Positions 1 to 18,734 of a stretch of 58,098 nucleotides of DNA are shown one piece after another; within the stretch, counting starts at the first letter, position 1; each line of letters starts with the position of its first letter. The translations under genes were made by a program, and so were the position numbers. The notes beneath the pieces were generated by a model. The model searched no databases. It worked only from the letters and a program-made list of their open reading frames with translations, and had not been told where the DNA came from. The DNA comes from Candidatus Dormiibacterota bacterium (GTDB lineage: Bacteria; Chloroflexota; Dormibacteria; Aeolococcales; Bog-877): contig DAHVMY010000005.1 of assembly GCA_027319585.1 (NCBI GenBank), positions 1-58,098 of the forward strand, written 5' to 3'.

Positions 1-57
1 TTACGGCCGCCGCCGTGGGTCGGTCGACGATTCCCTACGCGGTCAACCAGGCATTCT

Positions 58-345
58 ATGCGCAGAGTTTCTTCGCCCCGGTGCACCTGCTCGTGCTGCT
101 GGCCTGGCTCTTGCTGCTGCTGGCCGAGGCTGGCCGCCTGCCCCGGGGTCAAGGAGGTGTACACCACCACCGGGGATGTGGACTTCATCGCCAAGGTGGC
201 GCTGTCCGACCTCGAGGAGCTGGCTCAGCTCGTGCAGGAACACCTCGCCAAGATCGACGGCCTTGTGTCCACCAGGACCCACCTGGCGATGCGTCGCTAC
301 AACCCGGAGGAGATCTCCGCCGCCTTCGACCTCGGCGTCGACTGA
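58..345 (+). CDS. Lrp/AsnC ligand-binding domain protein (5' end aberrant or truncated)
   Basis: PGVKEVYTTTGDVDFIAKV...IDGLVSTRT is a typical AsnC ligand-binding domain; residues before about nt 127 do not resemble the family. Confidence 0.7.
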   Translation: MRRVSSPRCTCSCCWPGSCCCWPRLAACPGVKEVYTTTGDVDFIAKVALSDLEELAQLVQEHLAKIDGLVSTRTHLAMRRYNPEEISAAFDLGVD

Positions 346-366
346 GCGCTTGCCCCTCTCGGTCTC

Positions 367-1074
367 TCACAGGCCGGCCGTACCGATCAGGTGGCCTATC
401 AACGCCGTCACCGCCATCGCCGCACCACCCCCGAGGAGCACCCTCAGCGCCCCGCGGCGCCAGTCGGCGCCTCCGCCCAGCGCTCCCAGCGATCCCAGCA
501 CCGCCAGAGCGATCAGGGCGATCGCGACCAGCGCGATCACGCGGCCGGCCGCGGGGGCGACCAGGGTGGCCAGGATGGGCAGCACCGCACCGCCCGAGAA
601 TGCGGCCGCCGACGACGCCGCTGCCTGCACCGGACGGGCCCGGCCCTGCTCGGTTATCCCCAGCTCGTCTCGGGCGTGCGCGCCCAGGGCATCTCGGCGC
701 ATCAGCTGGAGCGCCACCTGGCGCGCCAGCTTGGGCTCCACGCCCCGGCTCACATATATGGCCGCCAACTCCGTCAGCTCTCCCTCGGGGTCGTCGCGCA
801 ACTCCTTGCGCTCACGCGAGAGGTCCGCACGTTCGGAATCACGCTGGCTGGAAACCGATACGTACTCCCCGGCCGCCATCGACATCGCGCCGGCCGCCAT
901 CCCGGCGATGCCGGCCAGAAGCACCTGATGCACGGACGAATTCGCGGTCGCCACGCCGAGCATGAGGCTCGCGGTGGAGACGATCCCGTCATCGGCCCCA
1001 AGCACCGCGGCCCGCAGCCAGCCGGTGCTTCCAGACCGGGGCTCTTGCCTGGGAACAGCCGGCGAGGAGCTCAC
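367..1074 (-). CDS. VIT1/CCC1 family Fe/Mn transporter
   Basis: LRAAVLGADDGIVS, GAMSMAAGEYVSVSSQ and HARDELG motifs. Confidence 0.92.
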   Translation of the reverse strand: MSSSPAVPRQEPRSGSTGWLRAAVLGADDGIVSTASLMLGVATANSSVHQVLLAGIAGMAAGAMSMAAGEYVSVSSQRDSERADLSRERKELRDDPEGELTELAAIYVSRGVEPKLARQVALQLMRRDALGAHARDELGITEQGRARPVQAAASSAAAFSGGAVLPILATLVAPAAGRVIALVAIALIALAVLGSLGALGGGADWRRGALRVLLGGGAAMAVTALIGHLIGTAGL

Positions 1075-1129
1075 CGGCGCGCTGCCGATCGACCAGAGGC
1101 GGCGTAACCGGGCCGGGACACGCGCTCGC

Positions 1130-3637
1130 CTAGCCCACCGCGCTCTGCACCGTGCCCTGCACCTCCTCCACGTACCGGTGCAGGCGCTCGGTCATCTCGC
1201 CCACCTCGGCCCCCGAGGCGATCACCCGGTACCGGGGCGTGTCGGCGTCCGGGAGCACGAGCACATACCCCGATTCATAGAGAAGCTTGAGACCATCGGT
1301 GAGATCAACCCGCTCGTGGCGGTGAGCCTCGGCCAGCCGGCGCATGACCTCGCCCTTGACCTCCCAGGGACACGGAACGGCGACCTCCTCGTGGAACCCC
1401 ATCGGTAGCTGGCGCCGAACCTCGGAGAGGGAGGTGTCGAGTTGAGCGCTCATCTGGATGGTCGCCAAGAGTGCGAACATGGCGTCGTAAGCGGCGAGGT
1501 GGTCGGGCCAGACGAACCCTCCCAGACCATCCGCGCCCAAAACGGCCTGGCTGCGGGCGGCCGCCCGCACCACTGAGGCCAGATCCGCGCGGCAGTGGAT
1601 CAGCCTGCCGCCGGCCTCCTCAACGATCTGCTCCAGTTGCCAGCACGCCGACACCGGGGCCACGATCGCGGCCTCCGGGCGGGTGCGCAGCGCCATCCAC
1701 GCCATGAGGCAGATCGCCTCCTGATGCGCGAAGATCTGGCCGGCGTCGTCGATCAGAAAGAGCCGCTGCCCCGGAGGGTCGACCCGAGCGCCGAAGTTGG
1801 CCCCGACCGTCTTGGTGATGCTGGCCGCCTGTTGCAGCTCCTCGTCGGGGTCGCGGGGGACCGGGGACGCGAAGGCCTCCTCCTCAAAACCGGAACGCAG
1901 GGAAACCGTCTGGATCTGGGCCTCATGGAGCAGATGCGGCAGCGCCACCGACGAGCTCCCGAAGCCGAAGTCGATGAGCAACCGTGGGTGGACGGCCCGC
2001 ACCTTCTCGAGGTCCAGCGCAGCCAGGGTGTCCGCCTGGTAGGCGGAAAGCACCGCCTCCGGATACCCGATCTCCTGAATCTCGCGCGGCACAACCCGCC
2101 GGAAGTCCTCCCGGAAGAAGGTGTTCTCCAACTTGCGCTCCTGGCGCCGGTCCAGGGCCATCCCCTGGCCGTCCAGGACCTCGATGTCGGCGGACCGGTT
2201 GTCGACCGGAGAGGCGACGATGTGGACCGCGCCGGCAGCGGCTGACCCCCTGGTGAAGTGGCAGGTGACCGGCACGGGCAGCTCGCTGAGGTCCATCACC
2301 CTGGCTCCGGCCGAGAGCATGCCCGAGATCATGGCGCGCTTGATCATCCGGGAACCCGGGCTCCGGTCCCGGCAGATCGCGAGCTGGGATCCCCGAGGGT
2401 GGGTGGCGGCCCAGGCGGCCCCCAGACGCGCACACCACTCCGGAGTCAGCTGCACGTTGATCAGCCCGGTGAGCCCGGCGGAGCCGAACAGGGCCGACCG
2501 CCAGGTGCCCGCCCATATCACCGACTCGTGGACCAGCGACCCCGGCTCGATCTCCTTGCCCGGCCAGATGCGCACCCCCTGCTCCACCACCGCTCCCGCG
2601 CCGATGGTGCAGTCGTCACCGATCACGCTGCCGTCGTCCAGGAGGACCTCTGGCTTGATGGTGGCAGCGCTGCAGACCACCGCCTGGCGCAGACGGCTGC
2701 GCTCACCGAGATAGACCTGCGGCCAGATCACCGAGTTGCTGAGCTTGGCGCCCTGGTCGACCACCGCGAAGCGGTCCAAAACGACCGGGCCATTGAGGAA
2801 GACGTCCTCGCCCACCACGCAGTCGCGGCCGATGAAGGCCGGCCCGACGATCTCGGCTGAGGCCGCGATCTCCGCCCCCTCGCTGACCCACTGGGAGTCG
2901 CCGACCCGCCGGCCGGAGATCTCGCACTGGACCCGGCCCTCCAGGGCGTCCCAGTTGGCCTGGAGGTAGCTCTGGATGCTGCCGATGTCGCACCAGTAGC
3001 CGCGGCCCACCACCGCCCACACGGAGTCCTGGCGGCGGAGCATCTCGGGAAAGACATCGGAGGACCAGTCGCACGGTTGGTCCTCGGGTATGTAGCTCAG
3101 AACCTCGGGATCGATCACATAGATCCCGGTGTTCACCTGGTCGCTGAAGACCTCACCCCAAGAGGGCTTCTCCAGGAAGCGGTCGATGCGCCCCTCGGGC
3201 GACGTCACCACCACGCCGTACTCCAGGGGGTTGGCCACCTTGGAGAGGACGATCGTCGCCCGTGACGCCCGGTCGCGGTGGAACGCGATCGCCTGGCTTA
3301 GGTCGATGTCGGTCAGGGCGTCCCCGCTTATCACCAGAAAGGTGCTGTCCAGCAAAGCCGCGGCATTCTTGACGCTCCCCGCGGTCCCCAGCGGGCGGTC
3401 CTCCACCGCGTACTCCAGCTGCATCCCCAGCTCCTGACCGTCCCCGAAGTAGTTGCGGATCGAGGCCCCCAGGTACTGGAGGGTGATGACCACCTCGGTG
3501 ATCCCGTGCCGGCGCAGCAGCCGCAGGACGTGCTCAAGGCAGGGCCGCCCCACCACCGGCACCAGCGGCTTCGGCCTCCGGCTGGTGAGCGGCCTAAGTC
3601 GGCTGCCCTCGCCTCCAGCCATCACGACCGCCTTCAA
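1130..3637 (-). CDS. Mannose-1-phosphate guanylyltransferase fused to a phosphomannomutase-like domain
   Basis: N-terminal [19 protein letters not shown]-transferase, hexapeptide repeats, C-terminal phosphohexomutase-like region; GGAGG RBS. Confidence 0.9.
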
Positions 3638-8719: not shown

Positions 8720-8759
8720 CACCACCTCCTGGCCAAACACGGGCTCGGAGCCGACAGGA

Positions 8760-8848
8760 CGAGGCTTCCCGACGCTGGTACTAACCAGATCCGGTGTTCA
8801 GGGTTGGCATCATGCCTCTCAGCGCCCTGTCGGCGCACCCCTAGCTGG
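8760..8848 (-). promoter_or_regulatory. TPP riboswitch (THI element)
   Basis: Minus strand CTAGGGGTGC..GCTGAGAG..AACCC..GGATCTGGTTAGTACCAGCGTCGGGAAG matches the THI-box consensus; upstream of thiamine salvage genes; TATACT -10 near 8868-8873. Confidence 0.93.
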
Positions 8849-8962
8849 GAATCGGAATCCCGAGCAGAGTATAGACGGAACCGGAGCTGGCGGCAGGCAG
8901 CAACGAAGGGTGAACTCAGCCCGGGTTTACTTCGGCTGTCGGACTACACTCTGAAATTGTGA

Positions 8963-8979: not shown

Positions 8980-9513
8980 ATGGCAGGCCCGACATCGTCC
9001 GGCCCAACCCCCCGGGAGCTGCTGGTCCAAGAGTTCATCGAGTCCCAGTGGCGGCTCAGCCGCCTGATCAGGGCCTCGGTCCTGAGCAGGATCGAGGCGG
9101 AGTCCACCGATCTGGCGAACCTGGCCGCCTCGATCACCCCGCACCAGCGCCAGGCGGTGATGGTGCTGGCCCGGCTCGGCCCCCGCTCAATGGGGGAGCT
9201 GGCCCGCGATCTGCTCATCAGCGCCAGCAGCGCCACCGAGCTGGTCGACCGCCTGGTGGACAGGGGGTGGGTGGAGCGAGAAGCCGATCCCGGTGACCGC
9301 CGTTCGGTGGTGATCCGCCTGACCGAGCGGGCGAGCGAGCCGGCGGCGGAGGTGGACCGGATGCTCCTCGAGGAGGTGGCGAAGCTGCTCGCCCCGCTGG
9401 GGGACGCCGAGATGGCGGAGTTGGTTCAACTGCTGCGGCCATTGGCGGCTCAGGCCTCCAACCGACCCCGACCGAGCGCCCGGCGCCAGCCACCCAGCGA
9501 GCCCGGGCAGTGA
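8980..9513 (+). CDS. MarR family transcriptional regulator
   Basis: wHTH with SATELVDRLVDRGWVER..DRRSVVIRLT. Confidence 0.92.
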   Translation: MAGPTSSGPTPRELLVQEFIESQWRLSRLIRASVLSRIEAESTDLANLAASITPHQRQAVMVLARLGPRSMGELARDLLISASSATELVDRLVDRGWVEREADPGDRRSVVIRLTERASEPAAEVDRMLLEEVAKLLAPLGDAEMAELVQLLRPLAAQASNRPRPSARRQPPSEPGQ

Positions 9514-11804
9514 GGAGGTTCTTCACCGCCCTGGGCCGACTCTCCGTTCGCTTCCGAGTGCCCGTGGTGTTGGCATGGGTGGTCATCGCGATCGTCTGCA
9601 TCCACGCGCTGCCAACCCTGGCGTCGGTCAGCAAGGACAGCAACTCCGCCTTCTTGCCCAGCTCCGCTCCGTCAATGAAGGCCGCCCGACTCGCCAGCCC
9701 GTTCCAGAGCTCAAAGCTCGCGGCCTCCACCCTGGTGGCGGTGAGCGACCAGGGGCCCCTCACGAGCCGCGACCAGGCCGCGATCAGCCGCTTCGAAGCC
9801 GAGATCTCCCACCTGCCCAAGGTCAAGCTGGTCCGTGACCTCGGCACCTCACCCAACGGGGTGGCCAGACAGGCCCTGATAGAGGCCGCCGTTCCCGCCT
9901 TCGGAGGCGGCGGTGGGCCGGCTTTGGTGGCATCGATCCGAGATCGCTTCGCAGCGGCGAGCGTACCCGGGCTGACGTACTACCTGACCGGCGACCTGCC
10001 CACCGTCATCGACAGCCAGCAGTCGTCCAAGAACTCCCAGAAGTTGACCCAGCTCTTCTCGGTGCTGTTCATCCTGGCCCTGCTCTTGGTCGCCTTTCGG
10101 TCCGTGCTCGCTCCCCTGGTCACCCTCCTGCCGGCGGCACTGGTCCTGGCGCTCTCTGGGCCAGTGGTGGCAGAGGCGACCCACATCGGAGTCCAGGTGT
10201 CGGTAATAACCCAGGTCATCCTGATCGTCCTGGTGCTGGGTGCCGGAACCGACTACGGTCTCTTTCTGGTCTTCCGGGTCCGCGAGGAACTCCGGGGAGG
10301 GCTCGCGCCCCACGATGCCGTGATCACCGCGGTCAGCACCGTGGGAGAGTCGATCACCTTCTCGGCGTTGACCGTGATCGCGGCCCTGCTGAGCCTCACC
10401 CTGGCTCAGTTCGGCCTCTACCAGAGCCTGGGGCCGGCTCTGGCGATCGGGATCGGGCTGATGCTGCTGGCGGGCTTGACGCTGCTCCCGGCGCTGCTGG
10501 CGATCTTCGGCCGAGCCGTGTTCTGGCCCACCGACACCCGCCCCGAGGCCCGACCGCGAGCCAGCATCTACAGCCGGCTGGCGGGGGGAGTGGTCCGACA
10601 TCCCGCCTGGATCCTCATCGGCGGGGTGGTGGTCTTCGGGGGACTGGCGCTCGGCAACCTGACCAGCACCACCGCCGGATTCGGCAACACCAATGCCCCC
10701 GCCGGAACCGATTCGGCAGCAGGCGCAGCCGTGCTCGCCAAGGACTTTCCCGCCTCCAACGTCCAGGACACGGCGGTTTTGTTCCGGCTGCCGAGGTCGG
10801 CATGGTCCGACCCCGCCCAGCTCAGCACAGCCCAGACCGCCCTTCAGAGCTCCGGCCGGTTCAAGTCGGTGATCGGGGCACTCACGGCCTCTCACCTGAG
10901 CGCCCAGCAGATTGCTGAGCTCCACACCACTCTGGGGGCTCCGAGTCGCCTTCCCGAGATCGAGCCCGCCGGCTACGCCGTCCCGGCGGCGGCCTACAAC
11001 GCCTACCGCGCCCTGGCGCAGTTCATCAGTCCAAGCGGTCGCACCGTGCAGTTCTCGACTTTGCTGCAGCACAACAACGACAACTCCGCCCGAGCGCTGG
11101 CGGCGGTGCCGCGGGTGCGAGCGACGGTGGCGGCAGTGGGCCGCCGGATCGGGGCGACGGACGCAGGCGTGTTCGGAGTGCTGCCGTTCGCCTACGACGT
11201 GCAGAACCTGTCCAACAGCGACCTCCTGCGCATCATCCCGCTGGTGGCGGTGCTGATCGCGCTGCTGCTGGCGATCGTCATGCGCAGCCTGATCGCCCCG
11301 CTGTACCTGGTGGTGAGTGTGGTCCTCTCCTATCTGGCGGCCCTGGGACTGGTGGCGGTCATCTTCGTCCACCTGGCAGGCGAGGATGGGATCAACTTTC
11401 TCCTTCCCTTCCTGATGTTCGTGTTCCTGATGGCGCTGGGGTCCGACTACAACATCCTGGTCATGACCCGCATCCGCGAGGAGGTGCACACCATGCCGCT
11501 GCGGCAGGCGGTGCGTCGGGCGGTGGGGATGACGGGGACCACGGTCAGCACCGCCGGGCTGGTGTTGGGGGGCACGTTCGCGGTTCTCGCCATCGCAGGG
11601 GGTGGCTCCGGCGGTGGCACGGAGATCGAGCAGATTGGATTCGGGATCGCCGCCGGGGTCTTCATGGACACCTTCGTGATCCGGACCCTGGTGGTGCCCT
11701 CCCTGGTGGCACTGCTCGGACGCTGGAACTGGTGGCCGTCACCTCTATCCCGGCGCCACCCGCCAGTGACACTACGCGAGCTCCCGGCTCGAGCCGAGTC
11801 CTGA
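9510..11804 (+). CDS. MMPL (RND superfamily) transporter
   Basis: Two MMPL repeats, GAGTDYGLFLVFRVREE and ALGSDYNILVMTRIREE. Confidence 0.93.
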   Translation: MRRFFTALGRLSVRFRVPVVLAWVVIAIVCIHALPTLASVSKDSNSAFLPSSAPSMKAARLASPFQSSKLAASTLVAVSDQGPLTSRDQAAISRFEAEISHLPKVKLVRDLGTSPNGVARQALIEAAVPAFGGGGGPALVASIRDRFAAASVPGLTYYLTGDLPTVIDSQQSSKNSQKLTQLFSVLFILALLLVAFRSVLAPLVTLLPAALVLALSGPVVAEATHIGVQVSVITQVILIVLVLGAGTDYGLFLVFRVREELRGGLAPHDAVITAVSTVGESITFSALTVIAALLSLTLAQFGLYQSLGPALAIGIGLMLLAGLTLLPALLAIFGRAVFWPTDTRPEARPRASIYSRLAGGVVRHPAWILIGGVVVFGGLALGNLTSTTAGFGNTNAPAGTDSAAGAAVLAKDFPASNVQDTAVLFRLPRSAWSDPAQLSTAQTALQSSGRFKSVIGALTASHLSAQQIAELHTTLGAPSRLPEIEPAGYAVPAAAYNAYRALAQFISPSGRTVQFSTLLQHNNDNSARALAAVPRVRATVAAVGRRIGATDAGVFGVLPFAYDVQNLSNSDLLRIIPLVAVLIALLLAIVMRSLIAPLYLVVSVVLSYLAALGLVAVIFVHLAGEDGINFLLPFLMFVFLMALGSDYNILVMTRIREEVHTMPLRQAVRRAVGMTGTTVSTAGLVLGGTFAVLAIAGGGSGGGTEIEQIGFGIAAGVFMDTFVIRTLVVPSLVALLGRWNWWPSPLSRRHPPVTLRELPARAES

Positions 11805-11829: not shown

Positions 11830-13365
11830 TCAGCCGGCCCTCTGCACCTCGGGTTCGTTGCCCGCCACCGGGGTCCGGGGGCTCGAAGCCGTCGCGTCCG
11901 CGCCATCGGCCCAGCCCGCCCTCCGGTTGCCGTACACGACCAGGACCACCACCAGCGCCAGCAGCGGGATCTGGGCGAGGTACTCATCCAGGCTCCGCCA
12001 GCTCAACCAGAAGGCGGCGAGCGTCAGCACGGCAGCTGCGATGCGCCATCGCGGCCAGAAGACACCCCAGGCCCAGATGGCAGCGATGGCCAAGCCGGTT
12101 GCTACCAGCCAGTCGATCCGGGGCGGGGCCGACCAGAACCGGGCCAGGACCAGCTCCGACGGCCCCGAGCCAAGGGGGAAGGTGTGGGCCCGGAGGCTGT
12201 TGTAGACGGCGACCAGCGCATCCGGGTAGCGCACCAGCAGCGGCACCACCGCCACCAGGAGCGTGGCCCCAACCCCGAGGCCGCGCTTGAGCCATTGCGG
12301 CCGGTCGGCACAGAGCAGGACGTAACCGGGGAGGAAGAACCAGGCCAGCTCATTGCTGCCGAGAGCCAGCCCCAGGCAGATCGCGGACAGCCACGGGCGT
12401 CTCAGAAAGACCACGCTGAGGGCCAGGAGCACGTAGGCGAACGCCTCCGCATTGCCGTTGGCGGCAAAGTTCACCGCTGACCCGTTGAGGAAGTAGCTCA
12501 GCAGGAGCAGCCCGCCGGCAGCTGGCCACAGTGGTCCGGCCACGACCACCAAGACCACGAGAAGAACCGCGATCGGGATCAGAGTCCACAGAGCACGGGT
12601 TGAGGGTGACGCCGAGGCGACCGGCACCACCGCCAAGGGATCCAGGGGCGGCTTGCCCAGGGGCGAGAACAGCCGCTGACCGCCGTGGTCGGGGCTGTTG
12701 GCGGCGGCCAGGATCTGAGCCGGGGTCGGGTAGACCTTCACGGAGGCGAGCGGGCCCACCCGGTAGGGGGTGGCCAGCAGCGGCGAGAGCCCCAGGCTCT
12801 GCAGGCACGGGATCTCGGCGACGTGGTACGGATCGGCTCCGGCTGATATCGCCCGGGCCCCACAGACCGCCATCGCGTTGGCGTCGTCGACCAGCAGGTG
12901 ATGGTCCGCCACGGCGCGACCGATGCCGGTCGCCACCACCAGCATCGCCAGGACCCCGAGCAGGGGGCTCGCCCAGAGCAGACGGTGGGCCCTCAGCCGC
13001 CTCAGCCAGGCCGGAAACGGCCGGCGCAGCGCCAGCGCCACCAGCACGCAGAAGCCGGCGAAAGCCAGGTACTGGATGATCAGGTTGGCCAGCAGAGCGG
13101 AGCGACCGGGAACCCGCTCGGCCAACCACAACCAGTTGGAGAACTTGAAGGCTCCATAGGCGATCACCAGGATCCCCACGCGGTCAGCCAGCTCACCCCG
13201 GGGTTGCCACACCGGGCTCAACCGCCTTGCCCAGGCGCCTAAACGGTTCAACGGTGCCATTCTGCCGGGTCGAGCCAGGACGCCAAGCCATCGAGGCCAG
13301 GGTGGGACGCCTGGGTCAGCTTTGGATTCGCGGTCACCAGGCCGACGGAGCGGAGTCGAGGCCAA
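11830..13365 (-). CDS. Polytopic membrane protein, GT-C/GT87-like glycosyltransferase candidate (start uncertain, possibly near 13260)
   Basis: Many TM helices, loop DD motif, G.DPY and PP motifs reminiscent of GT87/DUF2029. Confidence 0.55.
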   Translation of the reverse strand: MASTPLRRPGDRESKADPGVPPWPRWLGVLARPGRMAPLNRLGAWARRLSPVWQPRGELADRVGILVIAYGAFKFSNWLWLAERVPGRSALLANLIIQYLAFAGFCVLVALALRRPFPAWLRRLRAHRLLWASPLLGVLAMLVVATGIGRAVADHHLLVDDANAMAVCGARAISAGADPYHVAEIPCLQSLGLSPLLATPYRVGPLASVKVYPTPAQILAAANSPDHGGQRLFSPLGKPPLDPLAVVPVASASPSTRALWTLIPIAVLLVVLVVVAGPLWPAAGGLLLLSYFLNGSAVNFAANGNAEAFAYVLLALSVVFLRRPWLSAICLGLALGSNELAWFFLPGYVLLCADRPQWLKRGLGVGATLLVAVVPLLVRYPDALVAVYNSLRAHTFPLGSGPSELVLARFWSAPPRIDWLVATGLAIAAIWAWGVFWPRWRIAAAVLTLAAFWLSWRSLDEYLAQIPLLALVVVLVVYGNRRAGWADGADATASSPRTPVAGNEPEVQRAG

Positions 13366-13471
13366 TGTGAGGTGCCGGCGTCAATGCCCCGGCGGCGACC
13401 ACATCCCGCGCGGCGACGAGCTCCCGCTCACGAGCTGGGCCCGCGGACCCACGCCAGGAGGCGCCGTCGCC

Positions 13472-14980
13472 TCACCCCTGGGCGAGTGCCGCCAGGAACC
13501 GGGACAGCAGATCGGCGCCGAACCCACTGGGCTCGGGGTAGCCAGGGCGGATGCGGAAGGTGCGGCGGCCATCCTCGAGCCGCTCCGCGCGCAGGTACAG
13601 GGCGCGGTTCGGCCCGGTGTCGGGAATGCCTGTGGCCAGAGTGAAGAAGTGACTCACCACGATGACGGTCACCTCCGCTTCGAGCAATGCAGTGATCACC
13701 TGGCGGCCGATCTCGGACCCCTCCGCCTCGTTGGTGCCGCTCAGGGGCTCGTTGAGCAGGAGCAGCGCTCGCGGCCTGAGCCGTCCCGCGGTCTCCGCCA
13801 AGCGCGCCAGATCGCTGTCAAGGCGGCCGCTGTCCAGGCCCGCCTGCTCGCCGCGCACGAAGTGGGTCTGCAGGGTCGAGGCCAGCCCAGCGGAGTACTC
13901 CTGGGCGGCTACGAACATGCCCGCCTGCAGCATCAGTTGGGCCACGCCCACGCTGCGCAAGAAAGTCGACTTACCCCCGGAGTTGGCTCCCGTGACCACC
14001 AGCAGGCGTCGACCCACGGCCTCGACGTCGTTGCCCACAAGGGGGGCGTCGGCCCGCAACACCAATCCGGCATCCACCAGCTGGCGGCACCGGAATCCCG
14101 CCTCCATCCGGGAAAGCGGTTCCGGCCAGCACAGAGTTGCGCCCCTCGCCTCAAGCGCGCGCTGCAGGTTGGTGCAGGCCAGGTAGTAGCCCACCTCGAA
14201 TCGGAGTTTCACGAAGAACCCGAGGACATGGTCGGCGGCCTGTGCGACCGCGTCGACGCCCGAATTCATCCCTCGATCGACCAGATCACTGAGCGCCTGC
14301 ATGCCGGCATCGTCACGCGGAGCGATCTGGAAGGAGTACTGCGTGCGCTCGCCCAACCCCAGGCGCTCCGCCCACCCCCTCCTGGACTCGGATGGCAGAC
14401 GCAACACCAGCTCCTGCAGCTGGTTGCCCGGCCCCAGTCGGCCGCTGATGGTCTGGGCCTCGCTGAGCCGGTGTAGCCCGCCCAGGCACGAATCGAGCGT
14501 TCCCAGATAGACGTCGTCCAGATCGCTGCTGAGCGCTGCCGCCAAGGCTCTGACTCCGGCGGAGGACTGTTGGGAGAGCCCTTCCTCCGCCAATTGGCGC
14601 AGCTGCCGGAGCAGCGGGACCAAAAGATCCAGCGACTGGGTTGCGCGCCTCAGCGCGTGAGCCGGGCGCCGGCTGGCCAGGGCCCAGATCCGGCGGTCAC
14701 CCTCGATAGCTGCCACCGCCAGGGAGTAGAGAGCGTAGAAGTTGCCCGGGCTCGCCAGACAATCTCGCAGGACCGCCTGGCGATAACTGATGTCGCCGGG
14801 AGACGTGAGGCTGTTCAAGGTGACCCGCCGGGCCACGTCGCGCAGAAACGGGTCCCCGGCGGCCATGGCTGTCCAGATCCAATCCAACCCAAGATCCAGC
14901 TCCAGGTCGTCAGCCCCGGGGGGTGGGTCGGCCAGCGGGTCCGACCCGCCCTCCGGTCCGAGGAGGTTCACCGTCAGCAT
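13472..14980 (-). CDS. Stand-alone MutS ATPase-domain protein B (MutS4-like)
   Basis: Walker A GANSGGKST, Walker B variant LLLNE, VSHF; no mismatch-binding or Smr domain. Confidence 0.88.
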   Translation of the reverse strand: MLTVNLLGPEGGSDPLADPPPGADDLELDLGLDWIWTAMAAGDPFLRDVARRVTLNSLTSPGDISYRQAVLRDCLASPGNFYALYSLAVAAIEGDRRIWALASRRPAHALRRATQSLDLLVPLLRQLRQLAEEGLSQQSSAGVRALAAALSSDLDDVYLGTLDSCLGGLHRLSEAQTISGRLGPGNQLQELVLRLPSESRRGWAERLGLGERTQYSFQIAPRDDAGMQALSDLVDRGMNSGVDAVAQAADHVLGFFVKLRFEVGYYLACTNLQRALEARGATLCWPEPLSRMEAGFRCRQLVDAGLVLRADAPLVGNDVEAVGRRLLVVTGANSGGKSTFLRSVGVAQLMLQAGMFVAAQEYSAGLASTLQTHFVRGEQAGLDSGRLDSDLARLAETAGRLRPRALLLLNEPLSGTNEAEGSEIGRQVITALLEAEVTVIVVSHFFTLATGIPDTGPNRALYLRAERLEDGRRTFRIRPGYPEPSGFGADLLSRFLAALAQG

Positions 14981-16626
14981 CGGAGGGAGCGGCGCAGCTG
15001 TGGGTACGTCAAGCCGTGTCGCTCTGCCAGCACCAGCGCGTGGGCGATGCCGTTTGCAGGCTGGCGCAGCAGCCGGAAGGTGCGCACGGCAGGGTCCTGG
15101 GGATCCACCTGGCTCACCATGCTGACCGTGCCCGGACCAATGCTCGCGAGCTCATCAATGAAGGTCACGTAGACCCCTACCACGCCTCGGGCGACCAGCC
15201 CCTCGATCACAGCTCGGCCCAGCCGGCGGCCGTCTTCCAGGCTGGCAGAGCTGAAGGTCTCGTTGAGAATGACGACGGAGTGTGCGGTGGCGCGCTCCAT
15301 GATGTCGGCCATTCGGACCAGATCATCCTCCAGGCGCCCGCGGAGATCCTCCAGCCTTTCCTGCCTCTCAAAGTGCGTGAGCAGCTCATCGCACAGCCTG
15401 AGGGTGGCCCGCCGACCCGGGACCGGGCAGCCCAGCGCGGCCAGGTGGTGAAGCTGACCGAAGCTGCGGGCAAAGGTCGTCTTGCCCCCCTGGTTCGGCC
15501 CGGAGACGATTAGGAGACGCTCATCACCGACCAGTTCGAAGTCGTTGGTGACCACGCTCAACCCGCGCTTGGCGAGCTGCGCCGCGAGGCTGAGATCGAA
15601 GGCCCCCACAGCCCGCTCGGATGTGGTGCCAGCTTCCACCTCTGGGTAGCAGAAGTCGAGACCGAGCTGTCGCAGAGGCTGGATCCAATCGCGGTAGGCC
15701 AGGTAGAAGTGAAGCTGGCGATCAATCGCCAGCACGGTGGGGTCGGTGAAGTTCTGGTGCCGGGCCCGGAATGCGTGGAGCGCCGCGAACGCCTGCGGGA
15801 ACAGGCGGGCGACCAGATCGAGAATCCGCTCCTCGACGCCGCTCAATTGCGGAGCCACGCGCAGCTGAAAGAGATGACTTCGAGAGGCTCCCGATCGAAA
15901 GCGCGCAAACGTGCTTTGCAACTCAGCTCCGTAGTCGGCCTCCCCCGTGAAGCGGCGGACTGTGACCCGGGCCCCGAGGATCTCCACCACATACTCCACC
16001 TGGTCCAATTGCGCCCGAACTTCAGCGGCCGCCTGCGCGGCCTCGATGAACGCAGCCGAGCGGGTCAACTCTTGCAGGAAGCTTCGGCATCGCCGCAGCC
16101 CGGGCGACCGTATGTCCAGCCCCTGGAGCCCGCCGGCGAGGTCTTGGACCGCGCCGAAGTAGGTGGTGGCTGATGCCAGAAACCAAGCCGCCTGTTGAGG
16201 CTGATGGTGCCCGCCCTGGCTCTGGGCCAGCAGCTCCCGGCAGTCGCTCATGGCAGCGCAGAAGGAGGTCAGGGCCGTGGCGACGCGCCCGTCCTCCAGA
16301 TCGCGAAAGACCGCCTGACGGTACCGGATGGTCGCTGTGGATGTGGCCCGGGTCAGGAACAGAGGATGTAGATCCCACTCCTCATGCGAAGACGCCACCT
16401 CCTCCACCAGCTGCAGCAGGCCGAGGTCGCTCGCGGTCGTGGGGTCTGACAACCGGCCCGGATCCGACGCCCGCGACGGGTCCTCGAGAAGGCTCAGCCG
16501 GGGTGGGGCCGCGTCGTCACGCGGCAGCTGACTCGGGGCAGGCTCCGGCCTCGGGGCCGTCACCGCCGACTTCATCGCGCCCTCCCCGACGGGTGGCGTC
16601 GAGTCGAGGGGAAGTTCACCGACCAT
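14974..16626 (-). CDS. Stand-alone MutS ATPase-domain protein A (MutS4-like)
   Basis: Walker A GPNQGGKTT, Walker B variant VILNE; stop overlaps partner's start; GGAGG RBS. Confidence 0.88.
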   Translation of the reverse strand: MVGELPLDSTPPVGEGAMKSAVTAPRPEPAPSQLPRDDAAPPRLSLLEDPSRASDPGRLSDPTTASDLGLLQLVEEVASSHEEWDLHPLFLTRATSTATIRYRQAVFRDLEDGRVATALTSFCAAMSDCRELLAQSQGGHHQPQQAAWFLASATTYFGAVQDLAGGLQGLDIRSPGLRRCRSFLQELTRSAAFIEAAQAAAEVRAQLDQVEYVVEILGARVTVRRFTGEADYGAELQSTFARFRSGASRSHLFQLRVAPQLSGVEERILDLVARLFPQAFAALHAFRARHQNFTDPTVLAIDRQLHFYLAYRDWIQPLRQLGLDFCYPEVEAGTTSERAVGAFDLSLAAQLAKRGLSVVTNDFELVGDERLLIVSGPNQGGKTTFARSFGQLHHLAALGCPVPGRRATLRLCDELLTHFERQERLEDLRGRLEDDLVRMADIMERATAHSVVILNETFSSASLEDGRRLGRAVIEGLVARGVVGVYVTFIDELASIGPGTVSMVSQVDPQDPAVRTFRLLRQPANGIAHALVLAERHGLTYPQLRRSLRC

Positions 16627-16660
16627 GCCGGCCTCCGAACCGCGGACCAGGATAGGGATC

Positions 16661-16710
16661 GGTAGAAGCCATTAGCCGATCGCGGCGGCATACGCGGGCC
16701 TCATCGCGCT
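16661..16710 (-). promoter_or_regulatory. Fluoride riboswitch (crcB motif)
   Basis: Minus strand GCGCGATGAGGCCCGCGTATGCCGCCGCGATCGGCTAATGGCTTCTACC: P1 CGCG/CGCG, GAUGAGGCC loop, P2 GCC/GGC, UAAUG, pseudoknot strand GGCUUC and UAC tail. Confidence 0.88.
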
Positions 16711-16912
16711 GGTGCCTTGATTGTCGCACCGGACCGGCCACCGCCTTAAGCGCAGGGCGTCAGGGTGCGCGAGCGGCTGATGGTGCGAGGCCCGGCGCAC
16801 CCGCCCACTCGCCCCAGACGGCTGCTCCTTGCGGAGACGAAAGCGGTCGGCCTGGGCGCTCGGCGCCTTGGCGTCGCCGTGCTTGGCCCGCGCCGAACTC
16901 GATAATGGGGAC

Positions 16913-17371
16913 ATGGACGAGGATCCCCTGGTCTTCACGGACCGCTGGGCGGTTCGCCAGTACGAGGTCGACTCCTACGGGCATGTGAACAACGCCGTCT
17001 ACTTGAACTGGGCTGAGGAGATCGCGGCGCGGCACGCTGAGCGCAGCGGGTTCGGCTCTGCCTGGGCCAGCGCCCACGGCGGGGCATGGGTCATCCGCCG
17101 CAACGAGATCGACTATCACCTGCCCGCCCGCTATGGCGACGAATTGGTTCTCACCGTGCGGGTGGAGGCCGTGCGGGGCTCCCGGGGCCAGCGACGCACG
17201 ACCATCGTGAGGGCGGCTGACTCGCAGCTCCTGGCAGAGATCTTCACCGAGTGGGTGTGGATTCGCCTACGGGATGGACGGCCGGCGCCGGTACCCGCGG
17301 AGCTGGTGGGCCTCGCCGCCGCGACCACCAAGCAGACGCTTGAGCGACGCAGCCTGAAGCGGCCCCGATAG
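16913..17371 (+). CDS. Acyl-CoA thioesterase (4HBT/YbgC-like hot-dog fold)
   Basis: VDSYGHVNNAVYLNWAE motif; probable leaderless start (GATAAT-N6-ATG). Confidence 0.88.
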   Translation: MDEDPLVFTDRWAVRQYEVDSYGHVNNAVYLNWAEEIAARHAERSGFGSAWASAHGGAWVIRRNEIDYHLPARYGDELVLTVRVEAVRGSRGQRRTTIVRAADSQLLAEIFTEWVWIRLRDGRPAPVPAELVGLAAATTKQTLERRSLKRPR

Positions 17372-17534: not shown

Positions 17535-18734
17535 ATGCATTCCAGCTCGCTGTTCACCCCGCACCGCGGCGGGGATCTTCGCCGCCTCTACCTGATCGCC
17601 CTGGCCGAAGCCGCAGCCGGGGCGGCGGCGGAGGTGGCACTGGTCCTGCGGCTCACTTCGGCAACCGGCTCGGGATGGGTTGTGGCCGGCCTGTGGCTGG
17701 CTCAGGCCGTTCCCGCGATCGCCCTCTCGCCCTGGGCCGGGCTCGTGATAGATCGCGTCGAGACGGTCGTGCTGCTCCGTATGGTGACGGCCGCGCAGGC
17801 GGTGCTGCTGGGGCTGCTGGCGCTCACTCCCGGTGTCGGCGCGGTGCTCGGTCTGGGCTGCCTCCTGGGGCCCACGGCCTCGGTGGCGAGCGCCGCCGGA
17901 TTCGCACTCTTGGGGGCGATCCCTCAGCAGGGTCGGCGCCCGGGGCGCACCAGCCCCTTGGCGCTGCTGCAGGCGGCGCAGTGGATTGGCGCCACCACCG
18001 GACCGTTGGCCGGAGCCGGCCTGGTGGCCGCCTGGGGAAGTCGCTGCACCCTCCTTCTGGGCGCGGCTGTGTTCCTCGGCTGTTCTTCGGCTATGGGGAC
18101 TCTCGGATCCAGACGCCCTGGCCGCGGCCCCAACTCGACCCAAGACGCCCCCTGGGCCGGTTTCCGCCTGCTCCTCTCGGACCGAAGGCTCAGGGACATG
18201 CTGGCCCCGGTCGCGTGCGTCATTCTGGCGGTGAATCTGGGAGTGGTGATCGATGTGTTCCTCGCCACCCGCGATCTCCACGCCGGCGCCCTGGGCTACG
18301 GAGGCCTGGTGGCCGCCTGGGGAGCGGGGATGATCGCGGGGACCCTGGTTGGGGGGAGGGCGTCAGGGGAGAGCTTTTGGAGGGTGATCGCCGCCGGTGG
18401 CCTGCTCGCCGGCGTGGGGCTCGCCGCCGCGGGGGCCAGCCCCAGCATCGGGTGGGCCATCGCCGCCTACCTGGTGGGCGGGGCCGGCAACGGCCTGGAG
18501 GCGACTGCGGCGCGCCTGCTGCTCCAGACCAGGGCACGCTCGCAGGATCAGGGGCGCGCCTTCGCCGCCTACTCGGCCTTCGGCAGAGGTGCGGCGATCG
18601 CCGGAACCGTCGCCGGGGGCCTGGCGCTGGCGCCGCTCGGACCCCGGCACGCCCTCGAGCTGGCCGGGGCTCTGGCTGTCATGGCGGCAGTGGCCCTGCT
18701 GGGCCAACAGCGAAAGCCAGCGATGGCGGGCTGA
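17535..18734 (+). CDS. MFS transporter
   Basis: About 12 TM, AGLVIDRV motif-A-like segment, QGRAFA. Confidence 0.85.
   Translation: MHSSSLFTPHRGGDLRRLYLIALAEAAAGAAAEVALVLRLTSATGSGWVVAGLWLAQAVPAIALSPWAGLVIDRVETVVLLRMVTAAQAVLLGLLALTPGVGAVLGLGCLLGPTASVASAAGFALLGAIPQQGRRPGRTSPLALLQAAQWIGATTGPLAGAGLVAAWGSRCTLLLGAAVFLGCSSAMGTLGSRRPGRGPNSTQDAPWAGFRLLLSDRRLRDMLAPVACVILAVNLGVVIDVFLATRDLHAGALGYGGLVAAWGAGMIAGTLVGGRASGESFWRVIAAGGLLAGVGLAAAGASPSIGWAIAAYLVGGAGNGLEATAARLLLQTRARSQDQGRAFAAYSAFGRGAAIAGTVAGGLALAPLGPRHALELAGALAVMAAVALLGQQRKPAMAG

What the first reader, a model, noticed from the sequence alone, without database searches (positions are those of the whole stretch)
13472..16725. Fluoride-riboswitch-controlled tandem MutS-ATPase pair with no fluoride exporter
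Seen: a complete crcB-motif aptamer (16661-16710, minus) lies about 35 nt upstream of two overlapping paralogous genes of about 500-550 aa. Each has a helical region and a MutS ATPase domain but no mismatch-recognition or Smr domain. No CrcB/Fluc or CLC-F gene is in the unit or the window. Established: fluoride riboswitches are ON switches, MutS-annotated genes have been noted among their targets, and paired MutS4-type genes have no assigned function to my knowledge. Inference: a heterodimeric ATPase clamp induced by fluoride, an uncharacterised tolerance or rescue system (for example for metal-fluoride-poisoned nucleotide enzymes, stalled ribosomes or DNA damage) rather than mismatch repair.
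Basis: partly seen in the sequence, partly recalled or inferred. Interest (0 to 1): 0.85.

Follow-up and report, generated by a model that had tools for sequence, protein, structure and literature searches.

The report
Fluoride riboswitch controlling a MutS4 pair
A genuine fluoride-sensing RNA sits in front of two overlapping MutS-like ATPase genes, an association already noted in print and found here in many phyla, whose biochemical role in fluoride stress is still unknown.

Summary
A crcB-motif fluoride aptamer lies at 16656-16717 (-), 29 nt before the ATG of two overlapping genes: A (14974-16626, 550 aa) and B (13472-14980, 502 aa). It scores 28.0 bits, below Rfam's 34-bit cut-off, but E is 1e-05. 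It forms all 12 tested pairs of a structure that covaries across 72 aptamers, pseudoknot included.

A and B are the known MutS4A/MutS4B pair: MutS core, minimal clamp and ATPase, with no mismatch-binding or Smr domain.

The link to fluoride is conserved. Of 77 homologous loci with upstream DNA, 52 carry a same-strand aptamer within 400 nt, and 12 more within 1.4 kb.

Both paralogues have an invariant Walker-B Asn-Glu instead of Asp-Glu. A has lost the catalytic His and B keeps it. A heterodimer model passes its controls.

No CrcB or evident CLC-F was found in this 86%-complete genome. No CrcB was found in its 7 congeners either, where the aptamers instead precede a hydrogenlyase-like complex, dynamin-like GTPases, CbbQ-type AAA+ ATPases and MarR regulators.

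The mutS association has been in print since 2010 and the MutS4 pair since 2007, so this is a new member of a known kind. Its function remains open.

The parts
16656..16717 (-). Fluoride riboswitch aptamer (crcB motif): P1 16708-16705/16696-16693, P2 16686-16683/16678-16675, pseudoknot 16702-16697 with 16670-16665
   Evidence: RF01734 at 28.0 bits, E 1e-05, full model. Reading its row of alignment A3, it forms all 12 pairs that were tested for covariation on 72 aptamers. It scores 48.7 bits with the family-tuned model R1, of whose training set it was part.
16632..16636 (-). Shine-Dalgarno GGAGG, 5 nt before the ATG; complementary to the 3' pseudoknot strand
   Evidence: Read from the sequence. 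It pairs with 16670-16664 in the minimum-free-energy fold. SD pairing probability is 0.95 when free and 0.62 when the aptamer strands are withheld.
14974..16626 (-). MutS4A: 550 aa with a disordered N-terminus (1-39), helical MutS core/lever, a beta-hairpin clamp (212-225) and an ABC-type MutS ATPase (about 358-546). Walker A GPNQGGKTT, Walker B N455-E456, Phe489 in place of the conserved His.
13472..14980 (-). MutS4B: 502 aa with the same architecture (hairpin 177-194). Walker A GANSGGKST, Walker B N410-E411, His444 retained. Its start overlaps the stop of A by 7 nt.

Best explanation
This is a fluoride riboswitch that controls a self-contained two-gene operon, MutS4A-MutS4B, one module of a conserved fluoride regulon. 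Shown here: the aptamer and its covarying pseudoknot, the A-then-B gene order with overlapping stop and start, the MutS core-clamp-ATPase fold, the motif pattern, and the recurrence of the aptamer in front of homologous pairs across bacterial and archaeal phyla. Inferred: when fluoride accumulates, the aptamer folds and its 3' pseudoknot strand, which otherwise pairs with the GGAGG ribosome-binding site, is withdrawn, so A and B are translated in a coupled manner. They form an asymmetric heterodimer joined at the hairpin tips of their helical arms, with two unequal ATP sites: A lacks the catalytic His and B keeps it. Both carry Asn instead of the magnesium-coordinating Walker-B Asp. In E. coli MutS that substitution (D693N) lowers magnesium and ATP affinity and makes ATPase activity strongly magnesium-dependent. 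My committed guess for the task, at about 0.35-0.4, is an ATP-switched clamp on DNA or a recombination or replication intermediate. It would be needed when fluoride poisons magnesium-dependent phosphoryl-transfer enzymes, and its altered metal site would make it less prone than canonical MutS to trapping by magnesium- or metal-fluoride. The confidence given below is for the regulated heterodimer, not for that task.
For: Aptamer: (28.0 bits, E 1e-05); on 72 aptamers 98.6% of cells pair, the pseudoknot helix 99.3%, 8 of 12 pairs change on both sides, 0 of 500 shuffles reach these values, and slid controls pair in 39-57% of cells.

Association: Rfam gathering-level scans of all 80 homologous loci gave 68 RF01734 hits in 51 loci. 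With model R1 added, the tally on the 77 loci with upstream DNA is 52 with a same-strand aptamer within 400 nt (38 at Rfam's cut-off, 14 with R1 only), 12 at 409-1358 nt, 2 elsewhere only, and 11 none. In the genus, all 6 congeners with a MutS4A match have a same-strand aptamer upstream of it.

Pair: B follows A in 77 of 79 loci with DNA after A. In 52 of 71 pairs the B start overlaps the A stop by 4 nt. No third gene recurs; the largest follower cluster has 5 members among 67 loci.

Motifs: Walker-B N-E in 77 of 77 A and 72 of 72 B. A has Phe in 77 of 77 where B has His in 68 of 72. These positions are anchored on Thermus MutS2 7vuf and on the genome's own MutS1, which has STF/DE/TH.

Fold: A's best Foldseek hits are MutS2 7qv3_w (3.5e-18) and 7vuf_D (6.5e-18, TMq 0.55), then MutS and MSH3. 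B's best hits are E. coli MutS and MSH2.

Heterodimer: ipSAE 0.69 (runs 0.70, 0.69, 0.68), best of 3 controls 0.00. That mark was reached by 58 of 80 solved complexes and 2 of 110 mismatched pairs. The runs agree in at least 96% of contacts and partner pLDDT is at least 81. MutS dimers are solved, so the pass may partly reflect likeness.

D693N properties: PMC2857095, passages read. DNA-level effect: a MutS4 operon in M. smegmatis raised recombinant recovery, 27 of 36 versus 5 of 16 sequenced colonies (PMC5742357, sections 7 and 9 read).
Against: The aptamer is below Rfam's curated cut-off (28 versus 34 bits).

The switch logic is weakly supported in silico. The leader's fold is no better than shuffles (z -0.16). 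With the aptamer strands withheld, SD pairing probability falls only from 0.95 to 0.62, and the SD-to-AUG stretch barely changes, 0.75 to 0.72. Only 26 of 52 close aptamers have an SD-like site and in-frame start within 60 nt.

11 of 77 loci have no aptamer, and 2 loci have A without B.

Nothing here shows DNA binding. The confident predicted contacts are at the arm tips, not the ATPase heads, unlike the dimer interface I recall for canonical MutS, and this is a model. The recombination experiment is small and was done without fluoride. A's top structural hit is a ribosome-bound MutS2. The idea that the Asn makes the site fluoride-tolerant is pure inference.
Confidence: 0.75

Rival explanations
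1. Translation rescue: MutS4AB acts like MutS2, recognising stalled or collided ribosomes that arise when fluoride impairs translation GTPases or energy supply, and splitting them with ATP.
For: A's best Foldseek match is B. subtilis MutS2 on a collided disome (7qv3_w, E 3.5e-18). The best sequence match of both A and B is Thermus MutS2. Like MutS4, MutS2 lacks domains I and II. No Smr-domain gene, and hence no MutS2, was found in this 86%-complete genome, so that role could be vacant.
Against: MutS4 lacks the Smr domain. I recall, without testing it here, that MutS2 also uses a KOW domain on the ribosome. The MutS2 hits are only marginally better than the MutS and MSH hits (3.5e-18 versus 2e-17), and B's best hits are MutS1 and MSH2. 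No ribosomal or translation gene was seen in the aptamer-controlled clusters.
Confidence: 0.15
2. Protein reactivase: MutS4AB is an ATP-driven remodeller that pries open enzymes locked by magnesium-fluoride(-phosphate) complexes, as part of an exporter-independent tolerance programme built from NTPase remodellers.
For: In the window's genus, other fluoride aptamers precede CbbQ/NorQ-type AAA+ ATPases (2 of 20) and dynamin-family GTPases (5 of 20), and no exporter. I recall the CbbQ class acting as enzyme activases. NCBIfam names a roughly 508-aa MutS-family protein, KamC, as an aminomutase reactivase ATPase, and it is B's top NCBIfam hit (66 bits). Known fluoride-sensitive enzymes (pyrophosphatase, a PGM-like phosphatase) sit under neighbouring aptamers, and enolase lies in the M. 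yongonense island.
Against: The KamC link is only a precedent. B scores 66 and A 33 bits against a 300-bit cut-off. Ordinary MutS2- and MutS1-sized frames score 150-204 bits against the same model, while MutS4-type frames score 53-76. I found no paper in the library describing the reactivase. No client enzyme is consistently encoded next to the pair.
Confidence: 0.15
3. Fluoride-tolerant stand-in for mismatch repair: the pair replaces MutS1 when fluoride traps it.
For: The genome has a canonical MutS1 with D-E and T-H motifs. A solved MutS-ADP-BeF3 complex exists (1nne, listed), which shows that canonical MutS can be trapped by a metal fluoride.
Against: Neither A nor B has the mismatch-binding domain I or the connector domain II. 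The pair is common in Actinomycetes and in archaea, many of which, as I recall, lack MutS1/MutL. The MutS4 pair in this genome has no MutL-like gene beside it.
Confidence: 0.04
4. The RNA match is a chance or decayed look-alike, and the pair is not fluoride-regulated in this organism.
For: The score is below Rfam's gathering cut-off. No promoter-like site was found. No RNA run holds the stretch.
Against: E is 8.3e-6 genome-wide. Reading its row of the alignment, all 12 pairs tested on 72 aptamers form, including the unscored pseudoknot with its own compensatory variant. Three other aptamers in the same genome share that variant and precede known regulon genes. The orthologous pairs in the closest congeners, G004 and G002, carry the aptamer at the same place.
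Confidence: 0.03

Closest known systems
Fluoride riboswitch (crcB motif, Rfam RF01734)
   Same: Full-length match, P1 and P2, the conserved core, and the pseudoknot between the P1 loop and the 3' tail. It lies in the 5' leader of a gene class already listed among its targets (mutS, PMC2864571).
   Different: It scores 28 bits, below the 34-bit cut-off. P1 has a flipped C-G closing pair, and the pseudoknot uses GAGGCC/GGCUUC instead of the consensus. No terminator-like site lies between the aptamer and the ATG, so control is probably translational or Rho-dependent rather than by the overlapping terminator described for many members.
MutS4A/MutS4B subfamily (Lin, Nei and Ma 2007, PMC2190696; Kim et al. 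2017, PMC5742357)
   Same: Only the MutS ATPase domain is recognisable by sequence. There are two adjacent paralogues in fixed order with overlapping stop and start. They occur patchily in bacteria and archaea, including Thermoplasmata. The Mycobacterium island with enolase, an NADH-dehydrogenase/hydrogenase complex and MutS4AB has the same gene set that I find under fluoride aptamers.
   Different: The passages I read in those papers do not connect MutS4 with fluoride. The window's overlap is 7 nt rather than the usual 4 nt. Placement on their tree was not tested here.
MutS2 (B. subtilis ribosome-collision sensor 7qv3; Thermus MutS2 core 7vuf)
   Same: Best structural and sequence matches. 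The core, clamp and ATPase are present and domains I and II are absent.
   Different: No Smr domain. A heterodimer of two paralogues instead of a homodimer. N-E instead of D-E, G-K/R-L instead of S-T-F, and the His lost in one subunit.
MutS1 / eukaryotic MSH heterodimers
   Same: ABC-type composite ATPase, lever and clamp architecture, and functional asymmetry between two subunits.
   Different: No mismatch-binding or connector domains. The clamp is reduced to one beta hairpin. The natural Walker-B Asn corresponds to the engineered E. coli D693N mutant (3k0s). Predicted confident contacts are at the arm tips.
KamC, lysine 5,6-aminomutase reactivase ATPase (NCBIfam NF052383)
   Same: A roughly 500-aa MutS-family ATPase without mismatch or Smr domains, named for acting on a protein rather than on DNA.
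   Different: Far below the family cut-off (66 and 33 bits against 300). The KamC model is much closer to MutS2 and MutS1 than to MutS4.

Membership tests
Fluoride riboswitch (RF01734) | Covariance-model match (Rfam's curated 34-bit cut-off is operational, not structural) | tested here: inconclusive
   28.0 bits, below the 34-bit cut-off, but a full-length match with E 1e-05 locally and 8.3e-6 genome-wide
Fluoride riboswitch (RF01734) | P1 and P2 helices with the conserved core nucleotides | tested here: met
   Rfam alignment. In alignment A3 the window forms 4 of 4 P1 pairs and 2 of 2 tested P2 pairs. P1 cells pair in 98.6% and P2 cells in 96.5% across 72 aptamers.
Fluoride riboswitch (RF01734) | Pseudoknot between the P1 loop and the 3' tail | tested here: met
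   6 of 6 pairs form in the window (GAGGCC with GGCUUC). The helix pairs in 99.3% of cells, with GC/AU, AU/GU/GC and CG/UA exchanges, and 0 of 500 shuffles reach the observed values.
Fluoride riboswitch (RF01734) | Selective fluoride binding and fluoride-dependent gene control | not testable with these tools
   Needs in-line probing and reporter assays. The in-silico switch test was weak.
MutS4A/MutS4B | MutS ATPase domain without domains I and II and without Smr | tested here: met
   Pfam finds MutS_V in both and no other MutS domain. The models show only core, clamp hairpin and ATPase.
MutS4A/MutS4B | Two adjacent paralogues, with the stop of A overlapping the start of B | tested here: met
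   7-nt overlap in the window. B follows A in 77 of 79 loci. A 4-nt overlap occurs in 52 of 71 pairs.
MutS4A/MutS4B | Placement in the MutS4A and MutS4B clades with the published reference sequences | not tested
   The reference sequences of Lin et al. 2007 were not available to me. Homologues do occur in Thermoplasmata and Mycobacterium, the taxa named in the papers.
MutS2 | C-terminal Smr nuclease domain | tested here: not met
   No Smr in A or B and none in the genome
MutS1 (mismatch repair) | N-terminal mismatch-binding domain I | tested here: not met
   Pfam finds MutS_I only in the separate gene on contig C144, not in A or B
KamC reactivase (NF052383) | Score above the curated 300-bit cut-off | tested here: not met
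   B 66.1 bits, A 33.1 bits

The most novel reading that the evidence does not exclude
In a lineage where no fluoride exporter could be found, fluoride tolerance may rest on a riboswitch-controlled set of NTP-driven machines: the MutS4AB clamp, dynamin-like GTPases and CbbQ-type AAA+ ATPases, together with a hydrogenlyase/Mrp-like membrane complex. In this reading MutS4AB, with its invariant Asn at the magnesium-coordinating Walker-B position, is a metal-fluoride-insensitive remodeller that releases DNA-bound or enzyme complexes locked by magnesium-fluoride. This would be a fluoride defence that repairs the damage instead of pumping the ion out.
Probability: 0.15. Interest if true: 0.85.

Novelty: new member of a known kind. 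Interest (0 to 1): 0.5.

Why it matters
MutS-like genes have been listed among fluoride-riboswitch targets since 2010. In the open literature I could search, nobody has said what they do, and a 2024 review of fluoride resistance that I searched for 'DNA repair' has no occurrence of the term.

This analysis turns that loose annotation into a defined object:
- a two-gene, translationally coupled MutS4A/B heterodimer;
- an invariant Asn-Glu Walker B in both subunits;
- one degenerate ATP site;
- an aptamer in front of it in roughly two thirds to four fifths of homologous loci across many phyla.

It also points to a lineage where the pair can be studied without the confounding effect of exporters. 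No CrcB was found in 8 of 8 genomes of the genus, each of which carries 2-6 aptamers.

If the pair proves to act on DNA, ribosomes or poisoned enzymes under fluoride, it would reveal a cellular target of fluoride toxicity that is not yet recognised.

Tried and rejected
1. The default Rfam gathering scan of the window lists only a TPP riboswitch. The fluoride aptamer appears only with the E-value threshold.

2. Leader folding is not informative on its own. The MFE is no better than shuffles (z -0.16), and the constrained-fold mimic changes SD-to-AUG accessibility little.

3. The promoter and terminator scan of 13000-17100 found 0 promoter-like sites and 1 terminator-like site inside gene B, which is chance level.

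4. The KamC reactivase lead was rejected as a relationship. MutS2- and MutS1-sized frames score 150-204 bits on that model, and MutS4-type frames only 53-76. The literature search found only a note of a mutS-family gene in lysine-fermentation clusters (PMC3149608, one passage).

5. The 'intervening genes' between distant aptamers and MutS4A were rejected. L046, L052, L054 and L056 are Arg/Ser/Pro-rich frames that start in the aptamer tail. L084's is the N-terminus of a split MutS4A.

6. No recurrent third gene follows B. The conserved 511-aa membrane ORF after B is adjacent to the pair only in G004 and G002.

7. CLC-F: both CLC genes are closer to ClcA than to CLC-F. This does not exclude fluoride transport.

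8. RNA evidence: no RNA holder was listed.

10. Papers not held: Baker et al. 2012 and McIlwain et al. 2021. My memory that Baker 2012 lists MutS among riboswitch-associated genes is recalled, not seen. Supplements are closed, so the Baker 2012 gene lists and the Kim 2017 supplementary tables may already contain the dynamin-like, CbbQ or MutS4 associations.

11. Literature searches: 'fluoride riboswitch' with 'MutS' gave 1 irrelevant paper, with 'mismatch repair' 0, and with 'dynamin' 0.


Full report
OBSERVATION

A gathering-level Rfam scan of the whole window lists only a TPP riboswitch at 8750-8852 (-). With the E-value threshold on 16400-17000, RF01734 (fluoride, crcB motif) matches 16656-16717 (-) over the whole model at 28.0 bits, below the 34-bit gathering score, with E 1e-05. 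The genome-wide E-value is 8.3e-6.

The covariance model does not score the pseudoknot. In the window the P1 loop (16702-16697) and the 3' tail (16670-16665) are fully complementary, through a variant that differs from the Rfam consensus on both sides.

I aligned this aptamer with the three others in the same genome and 68 gathering-level aptamers from homologous loci (72 sequences). I then counted 12 pairs: P1, two P2 pairs and the pseudoknot.
- 98.6% of cells pair.
- The pseudoknot helix pairs in 99.3% of cells, with GC/AU, AU/GU/GC and CG/UA exchanges.
- 8 of 12 pairs change on both sides.
- 0 of 500 shuffles reach the observed values.
- Slid controls pair in only 39-57% of cells.

Reading its row of the alignment, the window's copy forms all 12 pairs. 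The aptamer is real.

The two ORFs are as described: A is 14974-16626 (-), 550 aa, and B is 13472-14980 (-), 502 aa, with a 7-nt overlap. Pfam sees MutS domain V in each, a weak sub-cut-off AAA_22 hit on A, and nothing else.

WHAT THE PROTEINS ARE

Sequence search of the PDB recognises only the ATPase domain. The best match is Thermus MutS2 7vuf, at 2.8e-18 for A and 4.1e-12 for B.

AlphaFold models built on alignments of 95 and 58 homologues are confident: pLDDT 86.5 and pTM 0.85 for A, pLDDT 88.3 and pTM 0.86 for B. Foldseek aligns them over about 525-550 columns to MutS-family chains.
- For A: B. subtilis MutS2 on a collided disome (7qv3_w, 3.5e-18), Thermus MutS2 core (7vuf_D, 6.5e-18, TMq 0.55, TMt 0.64), then MSH3 and E. 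coli MutS.
- For B: E. coli MutS and MSH2.

So both proteins consist of the MutS core/lever, a clamp reduced to one beta hairpin (A 212-225, B 177-194), and the ATPase. Domains I and II and the Smr domain are absent.

This is the MutS4A/MutS4B arrangement of Lin, Nei and Ma 2007. They describe adjacent genes with the stop of A overlapping the start of B, found in scattered bacteria and in Thermoplasma and Ferroplasma, with function 'not studied' (PMC2190696, passages read).

THE PAIR ELSEWHERE

The family is large. 5397 of the 8000 scored candidates pass E 1e-3, and the nearest named relatives are 'MutS-related protein' entries from Candidatus Dormibacteria.

I fetched 80 loci from named genomes. 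They come from Actinomycetes, Dormibacterota, Chloroflexota, Bacillota, Desulfobacterales, Thermoplasmata, Nitrososphaerota, Bathyarchaeota and others.
- B follows A on the same strand in 77 of the 79 loci that have DNA after A. L021 and L033 lack it, and the L054 contig ends at A.
- In 52 of 71 pairs the B start overlaps the A stop by 4 nt.
- No third gene recurs. The largest cluster of same-strand follower ORFs has 5 members among the 67 loci with at least 600 nt after B, and it includes the NuoH-like ORFs that have their own aptamers.

MOTIFS

Counts are, with A n=77 and B n=72.
- Walker A is invariant in both.
- Walker B reads Asn-Glu in 77 of 77 A and 72 of 72 B, where Thermus MutS2 and the genome's own MutS1 have Asp-Glu.
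- The His of the T-H motif is Phe in 77 of 77 A and is kept in 68 of 72 B.
- The trans-acting S-T-F is G-(K/R)-L in both.

The engineered E. coli MutS D693N has lower magnesium and ATP affinity, an ATPase that depends strongly on magnesium concentration, and only partial repair activity (PMC2857095, passages read; structure 3k0s, listed).

A heterodimer model (A 62-550 with B) passes. ipSAE is 0.69 (runs 0.70, 0.69, 0.68) and the best of 3 controls is 0.00. That mark was reached by 58 of 80 solved complexes and 2 of 110 mismatched pairs. The runs agree in at least 96% of contacts, and partner pLDDT is at least 81. The confident contacts join the two hairpin tips and adjacent helices (A 207-275, B 174-258), not the ATPase heads. 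MutS dimers are solved, so the pass may partly reflect likeness. It is a model's confidence, not a measurement.

IS THE FLUORIDE LINK CONSERVED?

Gathering-level Rfam scans of all 80 loci gave 68 RF01734 hits in 51 loci (tally).

The window's own aptamer is sub-threshold, so I built model R1 from the 72-sequence alignment. I searched the 43 loci that lacked a close upstream hit.

The final tally covers the 77 loci with upstream DNA:
- 52 have a same-strand aptamer ending within 400 nt of the MutS4A match. 38 of these are at Rfam's cut-off. 14 are found with R1 only, at 16.5-55.7 bits; the weakest, L040, has E 0.0014, and R1's E-values are rough.
- 12 have one 409-1358 nt upstream.
- 2 have aptamers only elsewhere.
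- 11 have none.

One 'far' case, L084, is really adjacent, because its 'intervening ORF' is the N-terminus of a split MutS4A.

In the window's genus, all 6 congeners with a MutS4A match have a same-strand aptamer upstream of it: G001, G002, G004, G005 and G007 within about 430 nt, and G003 about 630 nt.

This association is in print. Weinberg et al. 2010 list mutS among crcB-motif targets (PMC2864571, passages read), and a 2020 review repeats 'DNA repair proteins' (PMC7266159, passages read).

THE REGULON AROUND IT

Many loci carry two or three aptamers. I ran Pfam on the first ORFs after 30 aptamers that are not immediately in front of MutS4A.

| Family | Count |
|---|---|
| NuoH-like (NADHdh) | 7 |
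| Dynamin_N GTPase | 4 |
| CrcB | 2 |
| Inorganic pyrophosphatase | 2 |
| His_Phos_1 | 1 |
| P-type ATPase | 1 |
| NUDIX | 1 |
| Usp | 1 |
| DUF1059 | 1 |
| No family | 10 |

The window's genome (2.08 Mb, 195 contigs, 86.09% complete) has four solid aptamers.
- One precedes the MutS4 pair.
- One precedes a dynamin-family GTPase on C99 (Dynamin_N 1.5e-29).
- One precedes a six-gene unit on C118: NuoH-like, two Mrp-antiporter-like subunits, a NuoC/D-type large subunit and a NuoB-ferredoxin subunit. This is the 'formate hydrogen lyase' class of Weinberg 2010.
- One lies upstream of a MarR regulator.

The Mycobacterium yongonense island described by Kim et al. 2017 contains enolase, an NADH-dehydrogenase complex, a hydrogenase subunit and MutS4A/B (PMC5742357, section 7 read). 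That is the same gene set. The sections I read do not mention fluoride.

NO EXPORTER

Pfam CRCB gives no match in the genome, in 0 of 7 congeners (78-95% complete), in 1 of 18 genomes of the family, and in 4 of 12 of the sister family. In the control set 11 of 14 genomes have it. The family-level tallies include the unpublished G013 and G016; the genus-level ones do not.

The two CLC genes match ClcA at 1.2e-24 and 4.8e-21, against 2e-07 and 3.4e-10 for the solved CLC-F. One has GREGP. The other has GREAAP aligned to ClcA's gating-glutamate motif, and keeps a Tyr that I take to be the central tyrosine. Neither has an aptamer.

All 7 congeners have 2-6 aptamers each. The 20 that are not in front of MutS4A were tested with Pfam.

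| Family | Count |
|---|---|
| NuoH-like (NADHdh) | 9 |
| Dynamin-family GTPase | 5 |
| CbbQ/NorQ-type AAA+ ATPase | 2 |
| MarR regulator | 2 |
| Weak HAD-like ORF | 1 |
| No family | 1 |

None is an exporter. These are incomplete MAGs, and constitutive or unrecognised exporters cannot be excluded. According to a 2024 review, only about 15% of Flucs and 30% of CLC-Fs are riboswitch-controlled (PMC11139923, passages read).

HOW IT LIKELY WORKS

The 3' pseudoknot strand is complementary to the GGAGG at 16636-16632, 5 nt before the ATG, and the minimum-free-energy fold pairs them. That suggests a translational ON switch.

The support is weak.
- The fold is no better than shuffles (z -0.16).
- Withholding the aptamer strands lowers SD pairing probability from 0.95 to 0.62, but the SD-to-AUG stretch changes only from 0.75 to 0.72.
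- Only 26 of 52 close aptamers have an SD-like site and in-frame start within 60 nt.
- No terminator-like site lies between the aptamer and the ATG.

The protein's task is inferred, and I rank three possibilities.
- A DNA or recombination-intermediate clamp, about 0.35-0.4. As far as I recall, characterised MutS-family clamps bind DNA, and a MutS4 operon raised recombinant recovery in M. smegmatis from 5 of 16 to 27 of 36 sequenced colonies. That experiment was small and done without fluoride.
- Ribosome rescue like MutS2, about 0.15.
- A protein reactivase, about 0.15.

The genome also has a canonical MutS1, and no Smr domain was found. The pair is therefore an additional system and not the cell's only MutS.

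COMPARISON AND VERDICT

The RNA meets the structural criteria of a fluoride riboswitch but not Rfam's score cut-off. The proteins meet the architectural and gene-order criteria of MutS4A/B and fail those of MutS1, MutS2 and KamC.

The association and the pair are both already published, so this is a new member of a known kind.

I could not see the Baker 2012 paper or its supplement.
- The quantified linkage between the aptamer and the pair.
- The invariant Asn-Glu Walker B and the one-sided loss of His.
- The tip-joined heterodimer model.
- The recurrent dynamin-like and CbbQ-type partners under fluoride aptamers.
- A genus with fluoride riboswitches but no detectable exporter.

Noticed in passing
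window 8750-8852 (-): TPP riboswitch, 62.8 bits (gathering score 54.3), E 5.3e-10. It is the only Rfam gathering-level hit in the window.
   Followed up: no
L001 (G000:C99) aptamer 1501-1563 (-), ORF 2-1480 (-); also L010, L014, L038, L053 and L092, L098, L103, L106, L108: Dynamin-family GTPases sit directly behind their own fluoride aptamers. This holds in the window's genome, in 4 of the 80 homologous loci (divergent from MutS4A) and in 5 of 7 congeners. A search for 'fluoride riboswitch' with 'dynamin' found 0 papers. I could not see the Baker 2012 gene lists.
   Followed up: partly
L093 (G002:C160) and L100 (G004:C83): CbbQ/NirQ/NorQ-type AAA+ ATPases (AAA_5 plus CbbQ_C) directly follow fluoride aptamers in two congeners. 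I recall this class acting as enzyme activases.
   Followed up: no
L110 (G000:C118:57200-66000): A six-gene formate-hydrogenlyase/group-4-hydrogenase-like unit lies behind a fluoride aptamer. It comprises NuoH-like, a 222-aa unknown, Proton_antipo_M, a NuoC/D-type large subunit, NuoB plus ferredoxin, and a second Proton_antipo_M. It faces a convergent MarR-family gene (L110:7686-8414, -) that lies downstream of its own aptamer. MarR genes also follow aptamers in G003 and G005 (L097, L104).
   Followed up: partly
G000-G007 (whole genomes of the genus): No CrcB was found in 8 of 8 genomes of the genus (78-95% complete), although each has 2-6 fluoride aptamers. In the controls CrcB is found in 11 of 14 genomes.
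   Followed up: partly
window 11830-13365 (-): A 511-codon frame after gene B encodes a hydrophobic, multi-pass-looking protein with no Pfam or NCBIfam family. It is conserved at 63-82% identity in 6 of 7 congeners. It lies directly downstream of the pair in G004 and G002 and on other contigs than MutS4A in G001, G005 and G007.
   Followed up: partly
window 17535-18734 (+) and 9510-11804 (+): An MFS transporter lies divergent from the operon and an MMPL transporter lies convergent with it. Neither has an aptamer.
   Followed up: no
L063 150-1568 (+) and 3001-6101 (+): A MutS4B-like gene lies upstream of a complete MutS4A-B pair, which suggests two MutS4 pairs in tandem in one Actinomycetota MAG.
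   Followed up: no
L032 1490-1566 (-) and L034 1-79 (-): Group II intron matches lie next to the fluoride clusters in two MAGs.
   Followed up: no
G015:C3 and G018:C7: In a sister genus the nearest same-strand aptamer lies about 7.6 kb upstream of MutS4A in both genomes. This could be a long fluoride-controlled operon or a coincidence.
   Followed up: no
runs X1-X3: The only runs the tool listed (added as 'same study', holding next to none of the stretch) carry the organism label 'mine drainage metagenome'. I recall that an acidic setting favours HF entry and metal-fluoride complexes.
   Followed up: no
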